From assembly GCA_048938105.1 (NCBI GenBank), contig JBHLMN010000002.1, positions 1-64,000 of the forward strand: a stretch of 64,000 nt of DNA, read 5' to 3'. The notes below the pieces were generated by a model. The model ran no database searches and was not told the origin of the DNA. It saw only the letters and a list, made by a program, of their open reading frames with translations. Source of the stretch: Promethearchaeota archaeon (GTDB lineage Archaea > Asgardarchaeota > Heimdallarchaeia > Hodarchaeales > Hodarchaeaceae). The position numbers and the translations under genes were made by a program. Below are positions 1-9,927 of the stretch, one piece after another (positions within the stretch are counted from its first letter, which is position 1; each line of letters opens with the position of its first letter).

Positions 1-2
1 AA

Positions 3-230
3 ACAAAAAGGAGAAATGGTGACGTTATTGCCGTAAAAAGTGTTGCAAGCACAGATTATTTAATGCTAGTTGCGAGTGATGGGAAATTAATTCAGATGCC
101 AATCAAAGACATTAGAACTATTGGGAGATCTACATCTGGTGTGACTTTGATGAGGCTAGACAAAGATAAAGGTGTTACGATCACTTCTATTGCTATTCTT
201 ACAGAAGAAAAAAATGGTGGAAATGAATAA
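3..230 (+). CDS. gyrA: DNA gyrase subunit A, C-terminal fragment (5' end outside window)
   Basis: Hand translation of frame 3: TKRRNGDVIAVKSVASTDYLMLVASDGKLIQMPIKDIRTIGRSTSGVTLMRLDKDKG...NE*. This matches a GyrA beta-pinwheel blade (I..IGR.T.GV.LMRL). The TAA overlaps the top6B ATG (TAATG). Confidence 0.85.
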   Translation, partial: TKRRNGDVIAVKSVASTDYLMLVASDGKLIQMPIKDIRTIGRSTSGVTLMRLDKDKGVTITSIAILTEEKNGGNE

Positions 231-3200
231 TGACTAAGGCTGCCAAAACCCACGAAGCTGCTAAAGAGAAAGTCGTACGTAGATCTGCAGCTGATTTTTT
301 TCAAGATAATAAAGCTATTGCTGGTTTTGATAACACCATGCGGGTTGTTTTCACCAGCGTACGAGAATTGGTAGAGAACGGATTAGATGCAGCTGAAAGA
401 ATTGGGAACTTACCAGAAATCCATGTTAAAATTCAGCGATTGGAAAAAGAAGAAATCGCTAAATTATTAAACATTAGTTCTTTTGAATCGGTAGAGAAAC
501 TTGATTTCCTTCGATTGACAATTAAGGATAATGGGAGTGGGGTTCAAAGCGAATTCGTACCACCATTATTTGGAAGAGTATTAACAGGAAGCAATTATGG
601 AGCTCGCCAATCACGAGGTCGGTTTGGCCTCGGCGCTAAAATGGTTTTACTAAATGCCATGTCATCTGTAGATCTCCCTCTCATAATAAAATCAAAGCAT
701 CTAAATGAAGATTTTACAAGCTATCATGAGTTAATGATAAATTTAGCTAAAAATGAGCCTATAATATTAAATAGAAGAGAAATTCCTCAAGGAACCGCAG
801 AAGCAATTAAAGATTCAGGAACAGAAGTAAGTGTGACTTTTACGGGTTCTTGGGCTCTCGCGTCCCGATGGGTGAGGGAATATTTCTCCCAATTAAGTCT
901 TATAACACCTTATGCTAGTATCTATGTTCAATATCCTGATGATGAAGAACCAATAGTAATGGAACGTGTCGTTGAGGAAATGCCCCCATATCCCCAGATA
1001 GCTAAAGTACATCCTTGGGGAACGGATATAACTCAATTTAAACGGGAAATAGCAGTTACAAGAAGTGAGAATATGGAGGAATTTCTCCAAGACCACTTTC
1101 AAGGTGTTGGGCCTAAAACAGCACAAGAATTTTTAGATTTTGTTAAGATAGATCGAAATAAAAACCCCAACAATCTTTCCGCAAGCGATATACGTCGAAT
1201 AGTCCACGAAGGGTTTGTGATGCCTGACTCAGACCCAAAAAAACGTCGTGAACAGAAATATTTTCCTTTCAGAAGGCCAAGCGGTGAGTCTCTTTCCCCC
1301 TTAGGTTGGGAATTACTAGCTAAGGGTATTGAGAAAGAGCTAGCACCTCAGTTTGTTCGTGCAGCAGCAGGTGATATTTCAGCATATTCTGGACATCCTT
1401 TCATTGTAGAGGCAGCCCTAGCTTATGGAGGCCCAATGCTTTCCAGTGAATCAGGCAGCCCCAAAATTTATCGTTTTGCAAATCGTATTCCATTATTATT
1501 TGGTGCTGGAAATGACATTATTTCTAAATGCGTCCAGAAAATGAAATGGAAGAATTATAAGATCAAAATTAACAAATCCCCCATCGCTATTGTTGTTTCT
1601 ATTGTTTCCTCAAAGATTCCTTTTCCAGAGACGAGTAAAGAATATATTGCTGATGTTGATGAGCTTCGAAAGGAAATAATTCGCGTATTGAAGAAATTAG
1701 CTCGTGGTTTAAGTCAGCACTTAGGCCGAGCGGAGCGAGAACGTAGAGAGAAACAAAGACAATCACGGTTTGAGAGTGCTGCCCCAAAAGTTCTTCGCAA
1801 CTTATCAAAAGTGTTAGATGTAGCAGAGACCCCTTTTCTATTACACTCTACTGAGGAGATATCAAAGCTCGAAAAAGCATTGGCTTCTGCAGTACCAAGA
1901 TTAGTTCGTCGCACTTTTCCCCCTAGCCCTTTAATTTCAAGTATTGGGGAGTGGCTGCCAATGCAAACTTATGTAACTCTCGTTGAGCATAATATTCAAA
2001 CAATCTATCAGTTCCTAAGAGCTCCTGCATTGGAATTAAGTAATATTACTGGATTGTCGCTAGAACGAATAGCAGAGATAAAACGTGCGACAGTGACTAG
2101 TCAAGAAAGGGCAAATAAGGCCCCCTCAATGCGTGAGTTTGAAATTTTCTCCAAATCGATAGAGGATGATTTTATTAAATATCGAAATACTCTACGTATT
2201 CATAAAGCGTTAAATAAACGATGGATTGTATCGTCTCTAGATTTTTTTGCCACCCCCATTTCACAACTACGGTTAGTAGAGAGTTTTCCTGAAAAATTGA
2301 TTTATGAGGCAAAACAACAAGCAATACATGAGCATCTAGCAAAAAATCCAGGAAAAACTTACACTTTAAGATTATTTCCTTGGATAACTGATAAAGTGGA
2401 GAAAAGTCTGAAATCAGAAAAGATTCATAATATTTTGGATTATATGATTGCATTCCCAGAAAAAATTTCTAAAATTACAAATTTATCAGTTCTATTACTT
2501 GAAAGCGTTAAAAAAGAAATCAAAAATGGAATAAAAGAAGGATATATTGATGCAGAGAAAGTAATTGGTGCTGCAACCTTTGATTGGATGGATTATCGTG
2601 TCACACCACGTTTAAGAGGAAGAAATATTTCAAAAATCAATGAATTTTTACAAACTCCAACTGAGAAATTGGCTGATATACCAGAATTAGTAGAAAATCT
2701 GATACTGCGCTCGAAAAAAGGTCAAGACGAAGAGATTAAGGAGTTAAATAAAGAGAGCGCATACTTGAAAGTTGCTGCTCTTCAAGAAGCAATGATACCA
2801 GATTTGGATCGTCTTGAAATTAAAGGATTTATTGACTTTCTGTTAACAAATGAAAAAGACTTACAAATTATTCGTGATTTTGTACCTCATCTTATTTCCA
2901 TGAAACAAGACGAAATTCTAGAGCAAATTGAGCAAGAACATGAAATATCTCCCACAAAAGCTGCCTGGTGGCTTGATCTAGAGTTAGAAGGTCAATTGAA
3001 GGATCAAGGAATTCAAACAGTATATGATTTCATACGCTATCCATCAATGAGCCTTTTGAAGCTAAAGAATATGGACCCTCAGATCCTAGAAACAATTAAA
3101 AGAACCTATGGAACACCTATCCCTCTTTTGACCCCAGAAGAGCGTAATAAGCTAGATTCTCAGCATATCCTCTGTCTAGAAGAATTACAGGAGACTTTAT

Positions 3201-6200
3201 CAGAGTATACATTGAAACCCAAGACATTTCATGATAGGATAGAGGAACTACTTGATCTCTTAAATGTCCCCATTTGTTTTCTTCCTATTCCAAGTAAATA
3301 TTATCGAACACTTCATAACTTAGGAGTTTCACGAGTTATTGATTTTCTAATCTGGCCTGATGCTGATTTACATCGAAAAACGGGTATGTCTTATAAGCTC
3401 ATTGAAAAAACAAAAAGTAAAATTTCCCCCGATGAAATTAAAGCTCTTATTGATTCTAAAAGCCTTCCTGTCTCTGTGTTGGCAAGTAATTTGGACAGTA
3501 AATCTTCGGAAAAGTTGCTTCAGTCAGATCTCAGTCTTCAGGAAATTTATTACAATCTTCCCTATTCAAATAATATAATAGAAAAGATCAATCTTTCTAA
3601 TCGCGATATAACACAACTGGATGCACTTTTTCACACCCCAATTTCACAATTCCCTCAGATCAAACCTAGATGGGTTGCTAGCCTCCATAGTAAAAATGTG
3701 AACTCCTTTATTGATTTGATTAGTTGGTCAAGATCAGGTATTGCAAAAATAATTGGTCGAGACGAAAGTTTTGTTGATAATATGTTATCTAATTTCTCTA
3801 AATTCAATCCTGGTATGCCACTTGTTGATCTGGGTGTTTTATCTGCCACGGAAATGAAATCCTTAATTGCTAAAGGATACCCAACTGTTGAAAACATATA
3901 CTTCTATGCACGAAAAGATACTTTTGGGGTAATGGGTGTGAGGTGGAAGACAATTGAAAGGTATCAACGGATCCTTGAAACTCCAGTGGCAATGCTTCAG
4001 TTACGAAGTAGTTCTGATAAGTCATCAATTCATATCTCTCATGAAGGTCTTGAAAAATTAGCCAGTAGTGGAATTGATCAAATAATCAAACTGATCTATT
4101 GGCCTCCTAATGAGTTGAAATCAATACTTCCAATGTCTTTAAAACGTATTGAAGAGTTGAAACAGTCTGTAGCGATAAAAGAACATGGGATGCCATTAGA
4201 AAACGTTTGTGGATACAATCGTAAAACAATCTCAACATTATTAGGTTATGGTATTGAAACTGTAGAAGATCTTTATTTTACAGCCTCAGAAGATATGCTA
4301 GATGAGGATGATGAGCTTGATTGGAGCTATGTAGAGAAAGCAATCTCGGCACTTGAACTTCCAATAACCTTCCTTAATGGAGTAATTGCAGCCAAATACA
4401 TTGATAATTTAATTAAAAAAAGGATTGACACTATTATTCGATTCTTAATAACATCTGAAGAAGAACTTTCTGAAATTCTAAAAACACCCGCCGAGAATGT
4501 TGATAATTTAAGAAAGAAGATAAATCTTGTCCAGTTGCGTGAATCGACAGAAACCTCAGTATCAATTCTTGAAGGTCTCCCTCGAAAACAGCTGCAATTA
4601 TTAGCTGATGAGCAGATTTTAACTATTTTTGACTTTTTGACAACCCCAGATGATCAGATCGCTAATATTCTAGATCTCGATCTTAAACAAGTGATCACAA
4701 TGAAAGAAGAGATTAATTACACTAACATTAAGGCAATTAAAGAGGAGAAGATGGTTCCTTTAGCCCGAGTTTCTCTTTTCGATAGAAATACCATTAGAAA
4801 ACTTGCTCGTTTGGGAATAGAGAGTCTAGCAGATTTATACTATGTTGCTACACCTAAGACCTTTGTTGATAGCGATATAGATTGGCAAGAAATAATAGAT
4901 GCAAAAACTGTTCTAGATATGCCAATAGAGATCAATCCAGTTTCTACACAAGAAGAAAATGACATTTTGCGAAAAGAGAAAATTAGAACGGTTTTAGATT
5001 TAATGATGGAGTCTCAAGATGAACTCGAGGCTCGAACAAAGTTGCCATCAGCTAGAATAAAGGCTATTCAAGATTCAATTAATATCAATGCAATTTTAAC
5101 CTTCTTAAAACGATTATCAATTGATAGACTTGATTTTCCTCAAAAATATCTCACTATTTTACATCAAGCGGAAATAAAAACTGTTTTTGATCTTCTAACT
5201 AACCCCAGTGAGGGCATATTTCTTAAAAAAGAAGGAGATAAGAAAGTACGTATTGATAGAGACAGATGGATACGATTATTCTCTATTATGGCTATACCCC
5301 TCGGTTTGGTACTAGGCCCCGATCGTGAAAGTGTCAAAAAACTGAAACAAAAACGAATTGAGACATTACAAGACGTGTACTCCACTTCATCGGAACGAAT
5401 TGAAGCAATACTTGAAAGTGATCCTGTTGAATTATATACTAAATTAGATTCCATTAGTTTTCTTGAAATAGCTCAATTTTTAGCAATTCCAATTTGCTTT
5501 ATTCCTAAAATTTCTTTGGATTGGATTCATATACTCCAAAAACATTCACTTAAGCGTATTGGAGAACTCTTTGACAAAAGTATTAGAGAACTCGCTGAAA
5601 AATTAGGTACTACATCACCCAAAGTTCGGGGATTAGTTACAGGAATCAAAATGCCAGAAGTCATAAAGTGTTTAGAAGATGAGATGATTTCATTACATAA
5701 TTTCTCAGATATACTTCCATCTAAAGTTATTTCTGAATTAGAAGATAAGAATATTACTTCTATACAAGAATTAATCCTACATGATGGAAAAGAATTTGAC
5801 AATGACGAAATAGAGATGATTTATGAAATTCTTGGAGCTCCCATTAATAGATTATCTGAAGAGCTTCCCTTGAATGATTTACGGAAATTATCACAGAACG
5901 GAGTGACAACTCTTTCTGACTGGTATTTCACTCCAAATAATGCTTTAGCTAAATTAATAGGAATGGATCCATCTGAAATAATTAACCTTAAGAAAAAATA
6001 CGATTTCCAAGCTACTGGAGAAATTACCGAAGCTGATACTCCTCTTCAAACTTATGTTGAATCGGGGTATATTGATTTAGCGGAAGTTGAAAAACACGGA
6101 ATTCAAGTGTTAGAAGACTTATTATTTGTTGATTTGGAAACGATCCCAGTTTCTGATCAATTGAAATCTCGATTGGCTAATTTAAAGGATGCTCTTAACT

Positions 6201-7165
6201 CATCTTTGGCTTATTATGCTTTACTCCCTCCTCAATACGTTACTCCGTTAGCATTCAATGGTATAACATCTGTTACCCAACTGATCAAGACTGATTTTTC
6301 CCAATTAGAAGATCCTATGGGTATTATTTCAGAAGAAGAATATCGTACAGCAAAAAAATCAATAAATTTAGTAGATATCATTACTCATAAAAAAACTGAC
6401 ACAGAATTTCGCGTGAAATTATCATCTCTTCGAGCGTTTACTCCAAAGCAGTTAGACCAAATTCATAAACTTGGGATTGATAACATTGTTGACTTGTACT
6501 TCCGGTTAGATACAGAAAGATTATCAAAATCACTTGTTAAACCTGTTGAAACCGTGAAACGGGTTCTTGAAAAACCTGTTGCCATATTGCCCAATGTACA
6601 GGAAAACTTTCCGCAGAAGATCGCCTTATTATATAATGCAGGGATCACTTCAACGATTGAGTTTATATTTTGGCCTAAAGACGACTTAGCAGAATTACTT
6701 GAAATAAAACGGTATGAGATATCAAAATACCGAAAAATTAATCTTGGTTCTTTGAAACGAAAAAAGAATTTGGGGACACCTATCGAGAATTTTGTTAGGA
6801 TCCCTGAAGAATATATTACTTCCTTACAGGATATTGGAATTGATAATATTGAAGATCTCTACTTCCATCTTAAGAGATATAACTTTATTCCTGAAGAGGT
6901 TGTCCCCAAAAAGTTGATAAATGCGTGTATTCAAGATTTGGAGAATCCAATTGTACGATTAGCTGGATTACCTATTCCAATTGCTCAAGAGCTGGTTAAA
7001 AGAGGAATTTCACGGATTATAGATTTCCTCTACTGGCCAGAAGATGATTTGAAGCAAATTTATGGATTATCAGCAGCTAAAATCAAGCAAATTAAGGCTA
7101 ATGTAAGACTTAGGAGAAAAGCAGACGTTGTTGGACGATTGGATGCATATATGTCAAAAGAATAG
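230..7165 (+). CDS. top6B: DNA topoisomerase VI subunit B with a very long C-terminal HhH-like repeat extension (2311 aa)
   Basis: GHKL motifs RELVENGLDA, DNGSG, QSRGRFGLG and SGTEV; H2TH FQGVGPKTA; transducer RFANRIPLLF and IPFPETSKEYIA in the first ~550 aa. About 1750 aa of repeats follow. Lies directly upstream of top6A. Confidence 0.93.
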   Translation: MTKAAKTHEAAKEKVVRRSAADFFQDNKAIAGFDNTMRVVFTSVRELVENGLDAAERIGNLPEIHVKIQRLEKEEIAKLLNISSFESVEKLDFLRLTIKDNGSGVQSEFVPPLFGRVLTGSNYGARQSRGRFGLGAKMVLLNAMSSVDLPLIIKSKHLNEDFTSYHELMINLAKNEPIILNRREIPQGTAEAIKDSGTEVSVTFTGSWALASRWVREYFSQLSLITPYASIYVQYPDDEEPIVMERVVEEMPPYPQIAKVHPWGTDITQFKREIAVTRSENMEEFLQDHFQGVGPKTAQEFLDFVKIDRNKNPNNLSASDIRRIVHEGFVMPDSDPKKRREQKYFPFRRPSGESLSPLGWELLAKGIEKELAPQFVRAAAGDISAYSGHPFIVEAALAYGGPMLSSESGSPKIYRFANRIPLLFGAGNDIISKCVQKMKWKNYKIKINKSPIAIVVSIVSSKIPFPETSKEYIADVDELRKEIIRVLKKLARGLSQHLGRAERERREKQRQSRFESAAPKVLRNLSKVLDVAETPFLLHSTEEISKLEKALASAVPRLVRRTFPPSPLISSIGEWLPMQTYVTLVEHNIQTIYQFLRAPALELSNITGLSLERIAEIKRATVTSQERANKAPSMREFEIFSKSIEDDFIKYRNTLRIHKALNKRWIVSSLDFFATPISQLRLVESFPEKLIYEAKQQAIHEHLAKNPGKTYTLRLFPWITDKVEKSLKSEKIHNILDYMIAFPEKISKITNLSVLLLESVKKEIKNGIKEGYIDAEKVIGAATFDWMDYRVTPRLRGRNISKINEFLQTPTEKLADIPELVENLILRSKKGQDEEIKELNKESAYLKVAALQEAMIPDLDRLEIKGFIDFLLTNEKDLQIIRDFVPHLISMKQDEILEQIEQEHEISPTKAAWWLDLELEGQLKDQGIQTVYDFIRYPSMSLLKLKNMDPQILETIKRTYGTPIPLLTPEERNKLDSQHILCLEELQETLSEYTLKPKTFHDRIEELLDLLNVPICFLPIPSKYYRTLHNLGVSRVIDFLIWPDADLHRKTGMSYKLIEKTKSKISPDEIKALIDSKSLPVSVLASNLDSKSSEKLLQSDLSLQEIYYNLPYSNNIIEKINLSNRDITQLDALFHTPISQFPQIKPRWVASLHSKNVNSFIDLISWSRSGIAKIIGRDESFVDNMLSNFSKFNPGMPLVDLGVLSATEMKSLIAKGYPTVENIYFYARKDTFGVMGVRWKTIERYQRILETPVAMLQLRSSSDKSSIHISHEGLEKLASSGIDQIIKLIYWPPNELKSILPMSLKRIEELKQSVAIKEHGMPLENVCGYNRKTISTLLGYGIETVEDLYFTASEDMLDEDDELDWSYVEKAISALELPITFLNGVIAAKYIDNLIKKRIDTIIRFLITSEEELSEILKTPAENVDNLRKKINLVQLRESTETSVSILEGLPRKQLQLLADEQILTIFDFLTTPDDQIANILDLDLKQVITMKEEINYTNIKAIKEEKMVPLARVSLFDRNTIRKLARLGIESLADLYYVATPKTFVDSDIDWQEIIDAKTVLDMPIEINPVSTQEENDILRKEKIRTVLDLMMESQDELEARTKLPSARIKAIQDSININAILTFLKRLSIDRLDFPQKYLTILHQAEIKTVFDLLTNPSEGIFLKKEGDKKVRIDRDRWIRLFSIMAIPLGLVLGPDRESVKKLKQKRIETLQDVYSTSSERIEAILESDPVELYTKLDSISFLEIAQFLAIPICFIPKISLDWIHILQKHSLKRIGELFDKSIRELAEKLGTTSPKVRGLVTGIKMPEVIKCLEDEMISLHNFSDILPSKVISELEDKNITSIQELILHDGKEFDNDEIEMIYEILGAPINRLSEELPLNDLRKLSQNGVTTLSDWYFTPNNALAKLIGMDPSEIINLKKKYDFQATGEITEADTPLQTYVESGYIDLAEVEKHGIQVLEDLLFVDLETIPVSDQLKSRLANLKDALNSSLAYYALLPPQYVTPLAFNGITSVTQLIKTDFSQLEDPMGIISEEEYRTAKKSINLVDIITHKKTDTEFRVKLSSLRAFTPKQLDQIHKLGIDNIVDLYFRLDTERLSKSLVKPVETVKRVLEKPVAILPNVQENFPQKIALLYNAGITSTIEFIFWPKDDLAELLEIKRYEISKYRKINLGSLKRKKNLGTPIENFVRIPEEYITSLQDIGIDNIEDLYFHLKRYNFIPEEVVPKKLINACIQDLENPIVRLAGLPIPIAQELVKRGISRIIDFLYWPEDDLKQIYGLSAAKIKQIKANVRLRRKADVVGRLDAYMSKE
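1925..7110 (+). repeat. Protein-level tandem array of ~28 degenerate HhH-like (RNAP alpha-CTD / RadA-NTD-like) units inside top6B
   Basis: Recurrent P-h-x2-L...L-x3-G-I-x-T/S-h-x-D-h-h...L-x2-h-x-G-h pattern, e.g. PICFLPIPSKYYRTLHNLGVSRVIDFLIWPDADLHRKTGMSYKLIEK and PIVRLAGLPIPIAQELVKRGISRIIDFLYWPEDDLKQIYGLSAAKIKQIK. The units are diverged at the DNA level. Confidence 0.8.
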
Positions 7166-7177
7166 GATGAATTATTC

Positions 7178-8590
7178 GTGTCTGAAAAACAATCAATAAA
7201 AGCCACAATTGAGGATTATTCTTTCACTAATAAGGTCATTGAAGCTGATATAGAAAAAGATGGATCGCTTAATGCCATAAGAATATTCGTAAAAAAAGAA
7301 CTAGGGTTAAAAGCAAAACAACCTTTCCTAATTTTCTTTGGCCCAAAGAAAGCGAAGCGTTTTGAAGAGCTTAAAAAAACGAATCTTAACTCATTATGGC
7401 AGCTAGCAAAATCAGAGGAGGTTGTACTACAAATCCGACGGAAGGTCGATCTTTCGAAAGTACGAGAGTTACGAAAAATGATGACATTGGATGAAGTCGA
7501 TTTACCAGTGTCCGTTCTTAAGGTGGATAATGTAGTTCCTGAGGAAACAAAAAAACGATTACAGACAGTCGCGAGAGATTTTTTAGAGGAAATAGCTGAA
7601 GACCCCAAAGGAGCAGCGTTTCGTATACCATCCCGAAGTTCCGAAAATGTCGGATATGATGATAATTCTAAAATGGTACTTCTTGGTAGTCATGTTGTCG
7701 ATAAGCAGTTTCGTCACCTTAGTAGCGTTAAGAGTGTGGTTCAATTAACTGGATTAATGCGATATGTGAGCGAAATTTTAGAAACTGACAAACATGCTAC
7801 AAAACGGCACTTATTTTACCGGGATGTCAACTTATTCGATAATCAACGAGTATCAGATGGATTAATTGAAGACCTGGGGGCATTATTACGTGTTTCTCGA
7901 AATTCATTAAATGTAATTGCTTCAGCTAAAGGAAAAGTAATTGGTAGAATGTCATTTACAGAAGGAGGGGATCTAATAGATTGTACTCAAGGATTGGGAG
8001 GGCATGCTATTACCCCCATGCTAGATCAGGTTGATAATATTGAGAGCGATGCTGAATTTGTACTTGTCATTGAGAAGGATGCGGTTTTCCAAGACTTAGC
8101 AGAAGATAAATTCTTCAATTACTTACCCTGTATCCTAATAACAGCATCAGGTCAACCAGATATGGCTACACGAATGTTTATCAAGAAAATTCACGAAGAG
8201 TTAAGCATTCCAATTTTGGGATTCCTAGATGCCGATCCTTATGGTTTGGATATTCTTAGAGTATATTCAATTGGCAGTAAAGCCTTAAGTTTTGAGAGCG
8301 TGGAGTTAGCTGTTCCAGACATTCGATGGTTAGGATTATTACCTTCGGATATCAAGGAATATTCTATACCCAAATCTGTTCTTATTAAAATGACAGAAAA
8401 TGACATGAAACGAGCAGAGGATCTACTTCAGGAAGATTTTGTGAAGTCTCGCCCCGAATGGGAAAGACAAATCAGAATAATGACCGAAACAGGAAAGAAA
8501 GCAGAGATACAAGCACTTGCGGGGAAAAATTGGCGATTTATGACTGGAACATATCTTCCAACAAAAATAGACTCTGCAGATTGGGTTTGA
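7178..8590 (+). CDS. top6A: DNA topoisomerase VI subunit A (Spo11 family) with a ~115-aa N-terminal extension
   Basis: Catalytic-Tyr region TKRHLFYRD; TOPRIM motifs VLVIEKDAVF, GQPDMATR and DADPYG; C-terminal KAEIQAL. GTG start. Confidence 0.95.
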   Translation: MSEKQSIKATIEDYSFTNKVIEADIEKDGSLNAIRIFVKKELGLKAKQPFLIFFGPKKAKRFEELKKTNLNSLWQLAKSEEVVLQIRRKVDLSKVRELRKMMTLDEVDLPVSVLKVDNVVPEETKKRLQTVARDFLEEIAEDPKGAAFRIPSRSSENVGYDDNSKMVLLGSHVVDKQFRHLSSVKSVVQLTGLMRYVSEILETDKHATKRHLFYRDVNLFDNQRVSDGLIEDLGALLRVSRNSLNVIASAKGKVIGRMSFTEGGDLIDCTQGLGGHAITPMLDQVDNIESDAEFVLVIEKDAVFQDLAEDKFFNYLPCILITASGQPDMATRMFIKKIHEELSIPILGFLDADPYGLDILRVYSIGSKALSFESVELAVPDIRWLGLLPSDIKEYSIPKSVLIKMTENDMKRAEDLLQEDFVKSRPEWERQIRIMTETGKKAEIQALAGKNWRFMTGTYLPTKIDSADWV

Positions 8591-8681: not shown

Positions 8682-9350
8682 ATGTCCCAAATCTCATTTT
8701 TTTTATTTCCTGAATATAAGAACCAAATTTCATCTGGGGCATTGCAAAAAAGTCTCAACTTGGTTGAAAGCATTATTGCATTTTCTAAAGGTAAAAATTT
8801 GAGTGATAAAGCCATAGGGCAAATAAGCAAAAAATTAGGTTCTCGAATGAGAGGAACAAAACTGTACCCAGGAGGTAGTAGTGTTCTATTTGGTTGGAGT
8901 TTTTCTTTTGACAAAATTGGTTCAATAATTATAAAGCCATATTATAATCGCGAAATTTCAGCTTTAATCATTCATTACTTAACCAGGCAGGATTTTGTTA
9001 ATGAATTTCAAAATCTGCAATTTCAGTTGGAAAACGAAGAAATTCAAATTATAATCCCTAAAGTTGTCGGATTAGCCCATATAAAAACTTTTTCAAGGTT
9101 TTATCCCGTGTTAATGACCACCGAGGCTCCTGGAGAGCCTGCTCAGATGCATCCCTCTTTAATTAAGCATATCAGTGGGCTCGCGCGCGATTTAGCTCAG
9201 AAAGGGATCATATGCGATCCATATCCCTCAAATTGGAAGATTTCCTTCATTAATGGTGAGAGAATCATACAATACATTGACCTTTTGAGCTCCAACAAGC
9301 TCAAAAATGTACATAGTAGGATTGCAGATCTTCTAAAAGATTTTGATTAG
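8682..9350 (+). CDS. Hypothetical protein, possible atypical protein-kinase-like fold
   Basis: 222-aa ORF with a Gly loop (PGGSSVLF), a beta3-like IIIKP, a catalytic-loop-like ICDPYPSNW and a DFG-like YIDL. Confidence 0.5.
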   Translation: MSQISFFLFPEYKNQISSGALQKSLNLVESIIAFSKGKNLSDKAIGQISKKLGSRMRGTKLYPGGSSVLFGWSFSFDKIGSIIIKPYYNREISALIIHYLTRQDFVNEFQNLQFQLENEEIQIIIPKVVGLAHIKTFSRFYPVLMTTEAPGEPAQMHPSLIKHISGLARDLAQKGIICDPYPSNWKISFINGERIIQYIDLLSSNKLKNVHSRIADLLKDFD

Positions 9351-9375: not shown

Positions 9376-9927
9376 TCATTTTAAAGAATCACGATAATAA
9401 ACGGCTCTGCGAATAGCTGAGGCAAAAGCTGTACCGACACCTTGATTTGTAATTGCTGAAGTTGCAAAATAAGTTGCATTCATTTTATCAGCAAATTTCA
9501 ATCCAATGTCATCATTGACTTCACGTTCTTTCTTTAAATCAATTTTATTTCCAACCAAGACGGCTGGACTGTCAGGGAGAATTTTTTTCGCTTCCCTTAC
9601 CCAACTTGGGAGTGATAAGACTGTAGACTTTCTTGTAACGTCAAATATGTACATAATAGTATGGGCACCCTCGTAAAAGAGGGGACGTACCTTATCAAAA
9701 GCAGGTTGGCCAGATAAATCCCAAAAAATGGCTGTAGTCGTTTGATCGCTTGAAGAGCTCTTAAGTTTCAAAAATGAAATATCAGCCCCTGCAGTTGGTT
9801 TATGCTCAAAATCCCTTCCAGTAAATACAGAGACTAACTGAGTCTTCCCTACTAACGCATCACCAGCAACAACAATCTTATATTGTGAGAAGTGAGGCAT
9901 CTCAAAAAGAATATCGTCAGTGGACAT
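9376..9927 (-). CDS. Rab-like small GTPase
   Basis: G1 GDALVGKT, G2 PTAGAD, G3 WDLSGQ, FYEGA, G4 GNKID, G5 TSA. No C-terminal prenylation motif. Confidence 0.92.
   Translation of the reverse strand: MSTDDILFEMPHFSQYKIVVAGDALVGKTQLVSVFTGRDFEHKPTAGADISFLKLKSSSSDQTTTAIFWDLSGQPAFDKVRPLFYEGAHTIMYIFDVTRKSTVLSLPSWVREAKKILPDSPAVLVGNKIDLKKEREVNDDIGLKFADKMNATYFATSAITNQGVGTAFASAIRRAVYYRDSLK

What the first reader, a model, noticed from the sequence alone, without database searches (positions are those of the whole stretch)
1925..7165. Topoisomerase VI-B carrying ~28 tandem HhH-like (alpha-CTD/RadA-NTD-like) domains
Seen: an intact Top6B core of ~550 aa continues in frame for ~1750 aa of degenerate ~55-65-aa units. 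I count about 28. From the middle onward they mostly alternate between long units (..DFLxWPxxxLxxxxG..) and short units (..GIxxVEDLYF..), giving a ~120-aa super-repeat. The best units align by eye with the bacterial RNAP alpha-CTD and RadA/Rad51 N-terminal HhH pattern. Known: ordinary Top6B is about 500-800 aa, and a long HhH array on a topoisomerase is best known from Methanopyrus topoisomerase V, an unrelated enzyme. Inference: a type IIB topoisomerase with a large DNA-wrapping, processivity or scaffolding tail, and the strongest candidate for an undescribed system in this window.
Basis: partly seen in the sequence, partly recalled or inferred. Interest (0 to 1): 0.92.

Follow-up and report, generated by a model that had tools for sequence, protein, structure and literature searches.

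The report
Giant Topo VI-B with HhH arm
This Asgard (Hodarchaeales-type) archaeon's only topoisomerase VI ATPase subunit is four times the normal size because a conserved chain of about 28 small RAD51-N-terminal/RNA-polymerase-alpha-CTD-like helix-hairpin-helix domains follows its normal core. I found no paper describing this design, and what the arm does is untested.

Summary
Window 230-7165 (+) is one 2311-aa frame: an intact Top6B core (aa 1-545), then 24 statistically clear and 4 degenerate ~60-aa units (aa 566-2296).

It is not an assembly artefact:
- About 75 database proteins and most Heimdallarchaeia genomes sampled carry the same fusion (1115 to about 4300 aa).
- Same-genus orthologues align with almost no indels.
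- The tail is under purifying selection (dN/dS about 0.09).
- It is the genome's only Top6B.

Units match RAD51D/RAD51/RadA N-terminal domains and RNAP alpha-CTD by profile and by fold (Z 8-9.3). However, none keeps a canonical G-h-G hairpin and the tail is net acidic, so DNA binding is inferred, not shown.

The gene sits in a gyrB-gyrA-top6B-top6A operon. Its Top6A partner carries an N-terminal beta-grasp domain that co-occurs with giant Top6B. Another Asgard family puts canonical HhH arrays on the Top6A N-terminus, next to the Top6B-Top6A interface.

Most likely the tail is an accessory DNA- or chromatin-holding arm beside the DNA gate; a protein-scaffold role is the main rival. No paper found describes it. 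This scan has already found the same architecture in at least 10 other genomes. I rate it a new variant of a known kind.

The parts
1..230 (+). 3' end of gyrA (last beta-pinwheel blade), cut by the contig start. Its TAA stop (228-230) shares one base with the top6B ATG (230-232).
   Evidence: Sequence read. The same-genus locus L002 has gyrB (657 aa), gyrA (827 aa), top6B (2311 aa) and top6A (470 aa) on one strand. The rest of the own-genome gyrA lies on contig C31.
230..7165 (+). top6B ORF, 2311 aa. It is the only Top6B in this 5.85-Mb, 99%-complete genome.
230..1864 (+). Top6B core, aa 1-545: GHKL ATPase (ELVENGLDA N-box, DNGSG, GRFGLGAK), H2TH, transducer with WKNY, and terminal helices.
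   Evidence: NCBIfam PRK04184 E 3e-134; Pfam Topo-VIb_trans 7e-51; HATPase_c. Motifs read.
1865..1924 (+). Short linker, aa 546-565, between the transducer end and the first unit.
   Evidence: Not matched by the core profile or the unit profile.
1925..7117 (+). Array of about 28 (HhH)2-like units, aa 566-2296: 24 significant plus 4 degenerate. 'Full' units have four helices, often with ..DFLxWP..; 'short' units have ..DLY[FY].. with the third helix replaced by an acidic loop.
4187..4354 (+). Unit 13 (aa 1320-1375). It is the best-conserved unit in the genus (84% identity) and strongly acidic (-9.2 +/- 1.0 across 28 orthologues).
6941..7117 (+). Unit 28 (aa 2238-2296). It is basic (+5.4 +/- 1.0) and 79% conserved, the closest relative of units 8 and 12, and ends in RLRRK.
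7118..7165 (+). C-terminal peptide (aa 2297-2311) with the genus-conserved motif [VL]G[RQK][LI][DE]x[YF]M, then the stop codon. The motif is PIP-box-like in its second half but lacks the Gln.
   Evidence: PCNA binding was not tested.
7178..8590 (+). top6A, 470 aa, GTG start 12 nt after the top6B stop: TP6A_N plus Toprim.
7178..7552 (+). N-terminal beta-grasp (PB1/ubiquitin-like) domain of Top6A, aa ~5-90 of the first 125. In the genomes sampled it occurs only in lineages with giant Top6B.
   Evidence: AF2 pLDDT 73. Foldseek to PB1 1oey, USP15 UBL, ubiquitin and SUMO: prob 1.00, TM 0.65-0.78 by target. Pfam ubiquitin/Rad60-SLD hits on the f20 orthologue. Length survey.
8682..9350 (+). 222-aa ORF with no family match. 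It keeps the same position and length after top6A in the same-genus locus L002.

Best explanation
SHOWN. The gene encodes a genuine, selected Top6B whose C-terminus carries about 28 RAD51-NTD / alpha-CTD-type (HhH)2 modules. These are predicted to fold confidently into a largely continuous all-helical chain.

INFERRED from established knowledge. Topo VI is an A2B2 enzyme, so each holoenzyme would carry two arms (about 56 modules). The arms would start at the transducer end, where Top6B meets the N-terminus of Top6A beside the DNA gate.

INFERRED mechanism. The arm is an accessory nucleic-acid or chromatin-holding device. A subset of modules (the basic 'full' units and the basic last unit), together with lineage-specific Lys-rich or PIP-like ends, would hold DNA flanking the G-segment or a second duplex. 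This would raise local DNA affinity and favour crossings and catenanes. The acidic, hairpin-eroded modules would act as spacers or protein-docking sites.

In this genus the enzyme is co-expressed with gyrase from one operon. That fits a division of labour: gyrase sets supercoiling, and topo VI acts as a tethered decatenase.

The confidence given is for the inferred mechanism. That the fusion is real and the units are of this fold I hold at about 0.97.
For: - Core intact and the only copy in the genome.
- Fusion conserved: about 75 giant Top6B proteins of 2190-3917 aa. Open frames are 2312-2346 aa in the genus and 2258-4305 aa in five other families of the class; elsewhere the usual size is 500-680 aa, with exceptions such as family f20 (2286-2297 aa).
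- Same-genus tails align with about 0 indels at 45-77% identity.
- dN/dS is 0.083-0.127 in the tail, 0.048 in the last 310 aa and 0.045 in the core.
- Per-unit charge is conserved.
- Fold: AF2 pLDDT 85, pTM 0.62 over 10 units; RAD51D/RAD51/RadA N-domains Z 8-9.3, alpha-CTD Z 6.6-7.2; profile hits.
- Site: the Top6A N-terminal helix and the last Top6B transducer helix form the A-B interface in Asgard and eukaryote enzymes (PMC9665070).
- Independent second fusion near the same interface: family f11 has a 950-aa Top6A with an N-terminal canonical HhH array (HHH_5 4e-96, 14 G-h-G) beside a 645-aa Top6B.
- A shorter 1115-aa Top6B in family f7 keeps canonical HhH (HHH_5 8e-26, 5 G-h-G).
- Sister lineages end the arm in Lys/Ser/Thr-rich basic tails.
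- Precedent: topo V's (HhH)2 domains wrap DNA and appear to act as a processivity factor (PMC9489208).
- Operon with gyrase. Within the class, the gyrase-bearing families have the longest arms.
Against: - No canonical G-h-G hairpin in 1766 tail residues. The hairpin-1 Gly is kept in 11 of 24 units and the hairpin-2 Gly in 7 of 24.
- The tail is net acidic (-29, pI 5.6; -47 in a congener), while the core is basic (pI 9.1).
- The best-conserved unit is the most acidic one. That fits protein docking or DNA mimicry better than DNA binding.
- The fold family also includes pure protein-binding modules such as the NusA acidic repeats.
- The gyrase link is not strict: two 100%-complete f20 genomes have a 2289-aa Top6B and no detectable GyrA.
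- There is no expression, binding or activity data.
Confidence: 0.55

Rival explanations
1. The arm is a protein-protein scaffold or localisation device, not a DNA binder. The eroded, partly acidic (HhH)2 modules would dock partners such as PCNA via the C-terminal peptide, the Top6A beta-grasp domain, gyrase or chromatin proteins. Alternatively they would act as an autoinhibitory DNA mimic, as the NusA acidic repeats do.
For: - Net acidic tail with conserved acidic units.
- Loss of the G-h-G hairpins.
- Position-specific conservation of each unit with no copy-number change.
- Strict co-occurrence with a beta-grasp/PB1-like domain on Top6A in the genomes sampled.
- A conserved C-terminal PIP-like peptide.
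- alpha-CTD, the RAD51 NTD and NusA-AR are all known protein-docking modules (established knowledge; NusA hits).
Against: - Homologous arms in sister lineages end in Lys-rich tails and keep canonical HhH.
- A parallel canonical HhH array sits on Top6A in family f11.
- The canonical f11 array is also acidic (pI 5.2), so net charge does not discriminate in these organisms.
Confidence: 0.3
2. The arm is mainly a structural element. The two arms of the A2B2 enzyme would associate to enclose DNA, acting as a surrogate third gate or cage for a two-gate type IIB enzyme, or would link holoenzymes into a chromosome scaffold.
For: - pTM 0.62 over 10 units suggests a fairly rigid chain.
- The last 310 aa are as constrained as the core (dN/dS 0.048).
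- PB1-type beta-grasp domains can polymerise (established knowledge; the fold match is).
Against: There is no positive evidence for arm-arm contact, and this is the most speculative reading.
Confidence: 0.1
3. Artefact or decay: an assembly chimera, a read-through of two genes, or a neutrally expanding repeat without function.
For: The gene starts 230 nt from a contig end. The units are degenerate.
Against: - The same 2311-2330-aa frame occurs in more than 25 independent assemblies, including single-contig genomes.
- There is no DNA tandem repeat.
- Contigs of another sample tile the core-tail junction without joints or indels.
- dN/dS is about 0.09, and alignments are collinear with almost no indels.
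Confidence: 0.02

Closest known systems
Canonical archaeal topoisomerase VI B subunit (NCBIfam PRK04184 / TIGR01052; S. shibatae, M. mazei enzymes)
   Same: Full GHKL-H2TH-transducer core with ATP-binding boxes and WKxY. Encoded directly upstream of top6A.
   Different: About 1750 extra C-terminal residues. Canonical forms stop after one or two helices, or after a ~100-aa Ig-like CTD in gyrase-bearing Euryarchaeota (PMC9348778).
Topoisomerase V of Methanopyrus kandleri (type IC, 12 tandem (HhH)2 domains; PMC9489208)
   Same: A topoisomerase followed by a long tandem array of (HhH)2-type modules. It is the top, though weak, Foldseek hit for the 10-unit model (4gfj, E 0.014).
   Different: The catalytic domain is unrelated. 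Topo V modules are a different HhH subfamily with repair (AP lyase) sites. TM is only 0.1, so the resemblance is in layout only. Here there are 28 modules, up to about 50 in sister lineages.
RAD51/RadA/RAD51-paralogue N-terminal domain and bacterial RNAP alpha-CTD (Pfam RAD51D_N, RNA_pol_A_CTD, PF26169 HHH_XRCC3_RpoA)
   Same: Single-unit fold and sequence pattern (L..L...GI.T..DL ... L..i.G.s...i..iK).
   Different: Those occur as single domains. Here there are 28 in tandem, many with the second hairpin eroded or replaced by an acidic loop.
Top6A with N-terminal HhH arms in another Asgard family (f11; Thorarchaeota by the ESM Atlas cluster label)
   Same: An HhH array is appended to topo VI next to the A-B interface.
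   Different: It sits on the other subunit, is shorter (~600 aa), and has canonical G-h-G HhH motifs. The enzyme is a paralogue beside ordinary topo VI copies.
Plant topo VI accessory DNA-binding subunits BIN4/MID and RHL1 (own knowledge, not checked here)
   Same: Topo VI depends on extra DNA- or chromatin-binding parts.
   Different: Those are separate proteins with AT-hook and topo II-CTD-like regions, not fused HhH arrays.

Membership tests
Topoisomerase VI subunit B | Profile match over the whole GHKL-H2TH-transducer core, above the curated cut-off | tested here: met
   PRK04184 448 bits (cut-off 274), aa 6-535; Topo-VIb_trans 172.6 bits. TIGR01052 scores 355 bits, just under its 380.7 cut-off.
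Topoisomerase VI subunit B | ATP-binding Bergerat boxes and the WKxY DNA-sensing motif | tested here: met
   ELVENGLDA, DNGSG, GRFGLGAK and WKNY are present in the translation. This was read by eye, not by structural alignment.
Topoisomerase VI subunit B | Partnered with a Top6A that has a catalytic 5Y-CAP and Toprim | tested here: met
   top6A lies 12 nt downstream: TP6A_N 3e-18, Toprim 5e-64.
Topoisomerase VI subunit B | ATP-dependent strand passage | not testable with these tools
   Needs enzyme assays.
(HhH)2 domains of the RAD51-NTD / alpha-CTD type | Sequence-profile match | tested here: met
   Whole-protein RAD51D_N 90.9 bits (cut-off 27.3), RNA_pol_A_CTD 38 bits (23.8), HHH_5 28.4 bits (27). 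Taken singly, only 3 of 24 units reach E<0.01. The unit profile hits 2kz3 at E 7e-5.
(HhH)2 domains of the RAD51-NTD / alpha-CTD type | Compact helical fold (four helices plus a linking helix) superposable on solved domains | tested here: met
   Z 8-9.3, rmsd 1.3-3.3 A over 55-62 of ~60 residues for unit 17. A second unit (aa 1376-1431) scores Z 7.5. The other units are tied to these by sequence homology.
(HhH)2 domains of the RAD51-NTD / alpha-CTD type | Canonical G-h-G hairpins that contact DNA phosphates | tested here: not met
   0 G[ILVMF]G in the tail. A single Gly is kept in 11 of 24 (hairpin 1) and 7 of 24 (hairpin 2) units.
(HhH)2 domains of the RAD51-NTD / alpha-CTD type | DNA binding | not testable with these tools
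   Needs EMSA, fluorescence anisotropy or a structure.
Topoisomerase V (type IC) | Type IC catalytic domain followed by (HhH)2 repair domains | tested here: not met
   The catalytic part here is Top6B. The array similarity is weak (E 0.014, TM 0.1). The resemblance is analogy of layout, not membership.

The most novel reading that the evidence does not exclude
In the archaea closest to eukaryotes, topo VI has become a large chromosome-organising machine. Two long, semi-rigid HhH arms per enzyme, plus a PB1/ubiquitin-like domain on Top6A and a clamp-docking-like end, would tether the decatenase to replicating chromatin, or link or enclose DNA segments. This would prefigure the scaffold role of eukaryotic topo II.
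Probability: 0.15. Interest if true: 0.9.

Novelty: new variant of a known kind. Interest (0 to 1): 0.72.

Why it matters
[quoted passage not shown] Heimdallarchaeia, and Hodarchaeales in particular, are the closest known relatives of eukaryotes. Their sole topo VI carries a conserved 1750-3600-residue arm, a beta-grasp domain on the partner subunit, and operon coupling to gyrase. This suggests an unstudied way of directing a type IIB enzyme to its substrate.

It also gives a concrete system for two tests. One is the proposal that topo VI specialised after gyrase arrived (PMC9348778). The other is how tandem HhH arrays change topoisomerase behaviour, so far known only from topo V.

Tried and rejected
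- Self-BLAST of the whole tail returned only the identity hit; windowed BLAST and an iterated HMM were needed.
- Foldseek with the 626-residue model gave no match at E<=0.001; single-unit matches came from VIA.
- The atlas shape search gave TM 0.18-0.26 only. I used it for its domain-composition leads, which I then checked.
- PF26169 is not in the local Pfam copy. Its name, HHH_XRCC3_RpoA, appeared.
- Homodimer prediction of the last 327 aa returned 'no answer' (score 0.00). This is evidence neither way.
- No RNA holder was listed for the gene, so nothing can be said about expression.
- Logan contigs of other runs cover only parts of the stretch. One sample tiles 1400-2577.
- Non-Top6B hits of the unit profile that I checked (1590 and 1243 aa) are contig-spanning fragments, not stand-alone proteins.
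- The 1353-aa Top6B frame of G239 extends at the N-terminus, not the C-terminus, so it is a different form.
- A strict 'giant arm = gyrase present' rule was rejected because of two complete f20 genomes without GyrA.
- The C-terminal peptide lacks the PIP-box Gln; I could not test PCNA binding.
- Five paper searches and nine papers read found no description of the array.
Full report
**Anatomy**

Window 230-7165 (+) is one open frame of 2311 codons. Its ATG shares a base with the TAA stop of a gene fragment at 1-230. That fragment is the last blade of GyrA, cut by the contig start.

Residues 1-545 are a complete Top6B. NCBIfam PRK04184 scores E 3e-134, well above its cut-off, and Pfam places the transducer at 350-510. 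The ATP-binding boxes and the WKNY motif can be read in the translation.

Twelve bases after the stop, a GTG opens a 470-aa Top6A with TP6A_N and Toprim domains. A search of the whole 5.85-Mb, 99%-complete genome finds no second Top6B.

**The repeats**

Windowed BLAST shows many internal matches at 25-45% identity. An HMM iterated on the protein converges on 24 units of about 59 residues between aa 566 and 2296. Four gaps hold weaker unit-like stretches, and the three inside the modelled stretch are modelled as the same kind of helical module.

The consensus is xPIxxL..lp.k....L...GI.T..DL.....eL..i.gl....i..iK.i. Two classes are visible:
- 'Full' units have four helices and often the motif DFLxWP.
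- 'Short' units carry DLY[FY], and their third helix is replaced by an acidic loop.

Unit-to-unit scores show a two-unit period in units 8-14 and 22-28, and a three-unit (~185 aa) period in units 12-23. The best partners are often far apart (8-28, 12-28, 13-16-27), which suggests old block duplications. There is no tandem repeat at the DNA level.

**Is it real and selected?**

- A length-restricted search returned about 75 Top6B proteins of 2190-3917 aa from Hodarchaeales, Kariarchaeaceae and Heimdallarchaeaceae-type assemblies. Where a name is given, it is usually just 'DNA topoisomerase VI subunit B'.
- A survey of 300 genomes of the phylum gives open frames of 2312-2346 aa in the genus. Five other families of the class have 2258-4305 aa. 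Family f7 has about 1110-1155 aa plus a ~500-aa copy. Family f20, outside the class, has about 2290 aa. Most other matches listed are 500-680 aa.
- Same-genus orthologues align to the tail with essentially no indels, at 45-77% identity against 80-90% in the core.
- Against an 80%-identical orthologue, dN/dS is 0.045 in the core, 0.083-0.127 along the tail and 0.048 in the last 310 residues. dS is saturated, so these ratios are rough.
- Each unit keeps its own charge across 28 orthologues. Unit 13 is -9.2 +/- 1.0 and the best conserved; the last unit is +5.4 +/- 1.0.
- Contigs from another sample tile the core-tail junction without joints.

An artefact, or neutral repeat growth, is therefore excluded for practical purposes.

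**What the units are**

Pfam hits on the whole protein are RAD51D_N (6e-26), RNA_pol_A_CTD (1e-9) and HHH_5 (2e-6). Precomputed annotation adds PF26169, named HHH_XRCC3_RpoA.

A profile of the 24 units finds the RAD51D N-domain (2kz3, E 7e-5), followed by alpha-CTD, NusA acidic repeats and the DMC1 N-domain.

An AlphaFold model of ten units, built with 45 orthologues, has mean pLDDT 85 and pTM 0.62 and is all-helical. One unit superposes on RAD51D/C, RAD51, DMC1 and RadA N-domains at Z 8-9.3, and on alpha-CTD at Z 6.6-7.2. For the whole model, the best but weak Foldseek hits are the topo V HhH fragments.

In the own genome the unit profile matches nothing outside this gene. Among 1.84 billion representative proteins only 151 match at E<=0.001. 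Those at the top that also appeared are giant Top6B proteins, and the non-Top6B hits I checked are contig-spanning fragments.

**Context**

In a single-contig genome of the same genus, the order is gyrB, gyrA, top6B (2311 aa), top6A (470 aa), then a 222-aa ORF, all on one strand. The window shows the same arrangement from the gyrA end onward.

Within the class, GyrA is found in families f1-f6, which have the long arms, and in none of the 12 genomes of family f7. Family f7 has a shorter 1115-aa Top6B with a ~600-aa tail that still carries canonical HhH (HHH_5 8e-26, five G-h-G), plus an ordinary copy.

This fits the published idea that Top6B C-termini diversified in gyrase-bearing archaea (PMC9348778). 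It is not a rule, however: two 100%-complete f20 genomes have a 2289-aa Top6B and no detectable GyrA.

Top6A is 462-483 aa in every family with a giant Top6B and about 400 aa elsewhere. The extra N-terminal ~90 residues model as a beta-grasp. Foldseek matches PB1 domains, USP15 UBL, ubiquitin and SUMO at probability 1.00. The f20 orthologue hits the Pfam ubiquitin family.

**A parallel fusion**

An atlas lead and the Top6A survey pointed to long Top6A proteins in family f11. One I fetched is 950 aa with an N-terminal array of canonical HhH motifs (HHH_5 4e-96, 14 G-h-G), next to a 645-aa Top6B.

In Asgard and eukaryote enzymes the Top6A N-terminal helix and the last helix of the Top6B transducer form the A-B interface (PMC9665070). 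Both fusions therefore hang an HhH array next to that interface, beside the DNA gate.

**Mechanism**

I consider an accessory DNA- or chromatin-holding arm most likely (about 0.55). The grounds are:
- the fold family;
- the attachment site;
- the parallel canonical array on Top6A;
- the canonical short arm in family f7;
- the Lys/Ser/Thr-rich basic tails that end the arm in sister lineages;
- the topo V precedent, where (HhH)2 domains wrap DNA and appear to act as a processivity factor (PMC9489208).

Several observations argue against it:
- This tail has no G-h-G at all, and hairpin glycines survive in only 11 and 7 of 24 units.
- The tail is net -29 with pI 5.6, and its best-conserved unit is the most acidic.

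Net charge is a weak argument, because the canonical f11 array is acidic too. The main rival is a protein-docking scaffold or autoinhibitory arm (about 0.3). A cage or scaffold formed by the two arms is possible but unsupported; the homodimer prediction gave no answer.

The genus-conserved C-terminal peptide [VL]G[RQK][LI][DE]x[YF]M after RLRRK resembles the second half of a PIP box. It lacks the Gln, and I could not test it.

**Novelty**

Five full-text searches and the relevant papers mention Asgard Top6B C-terminal extensions only in general terms (a 'globular domain', 'CTD +'). None describes an HhH array. The proteins are public but unremarked.

This scan has already reported the same architecture in at least ten other genomes, so this window adds a further member, not a first sighting. 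I rate it a new variant of a known kind: a known enzyme and a known domain type, combined at a scale that is undescribed in the papers I could search.

Noticed in passing
window 7178-7552 (+): The Top6A N-terminus is a beta-grasp (PB1/ubiquitin-like) domain. Top6A is 462-483 aa only in lineages with giant Top6B and about 400 aa elsewhere in the sample.
   Followed up: yes
window 1-230; G000 contig C31 ~133500-133840: gyrA is split by a contig break: its last blade opens the window and the earlier blades lie at C31. The gyrA TAA stop and the top6B ATG overlap (TAATG), which suggests translational coupling.
   Followed up: partly
L004 (G041:C6:512000-531000): A family outside the class has two topo VI gene pairs in tandem: a 557-aa Top6B with a 387-aa Top6A, then a 968-aa HEAT-repeat protein, then a 2289-aa Top6B with a 463-aa beta-grasp-Top6A. 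No GyrA was found in that complete genome.
   Followed up: partly
L005:3656-6508 (-) (G037): A 950-aa Top6A paralogue with about 600 aa of canonical HhH repeats at its N-terminus, next to a 645-aa Top6B. Family f11 genomes carry 2-3 topo VI copies.
   Followed up: partly
C-termini of P0044-P0076, L003: Giant Top6B of other lineages end in long Lys/Ser/Thr-rich low-complexity tails (for example KKTTG repeats). Some have QKSLNAF- or QKSLDEY-like peptides near the end.
   Followed up: no
L009 (G239:C93): A 1353-aa Top6B frame whose extra length lies before the GHKL domain, not after the transducer. This is a different, N-terminally extended form.
   Followed up: no
G026, G073, G144, G186, G282 (about 1270-1286 aa), G156 (1726 aa): GyrA open frames of about 1270-1726 aa in family f3, against about 830-860 aa in the genus. 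These may be inteins or other insertions.
   Followed up: no
window 8682-9350 (+) and 9376-9927 (-): A 222-aa ORF without any family match is conserved after top6A in the same genus. Next to it lies a Ras/Rab-like small GTPase (Pfam Ras 4e-34).
   Followed up: no
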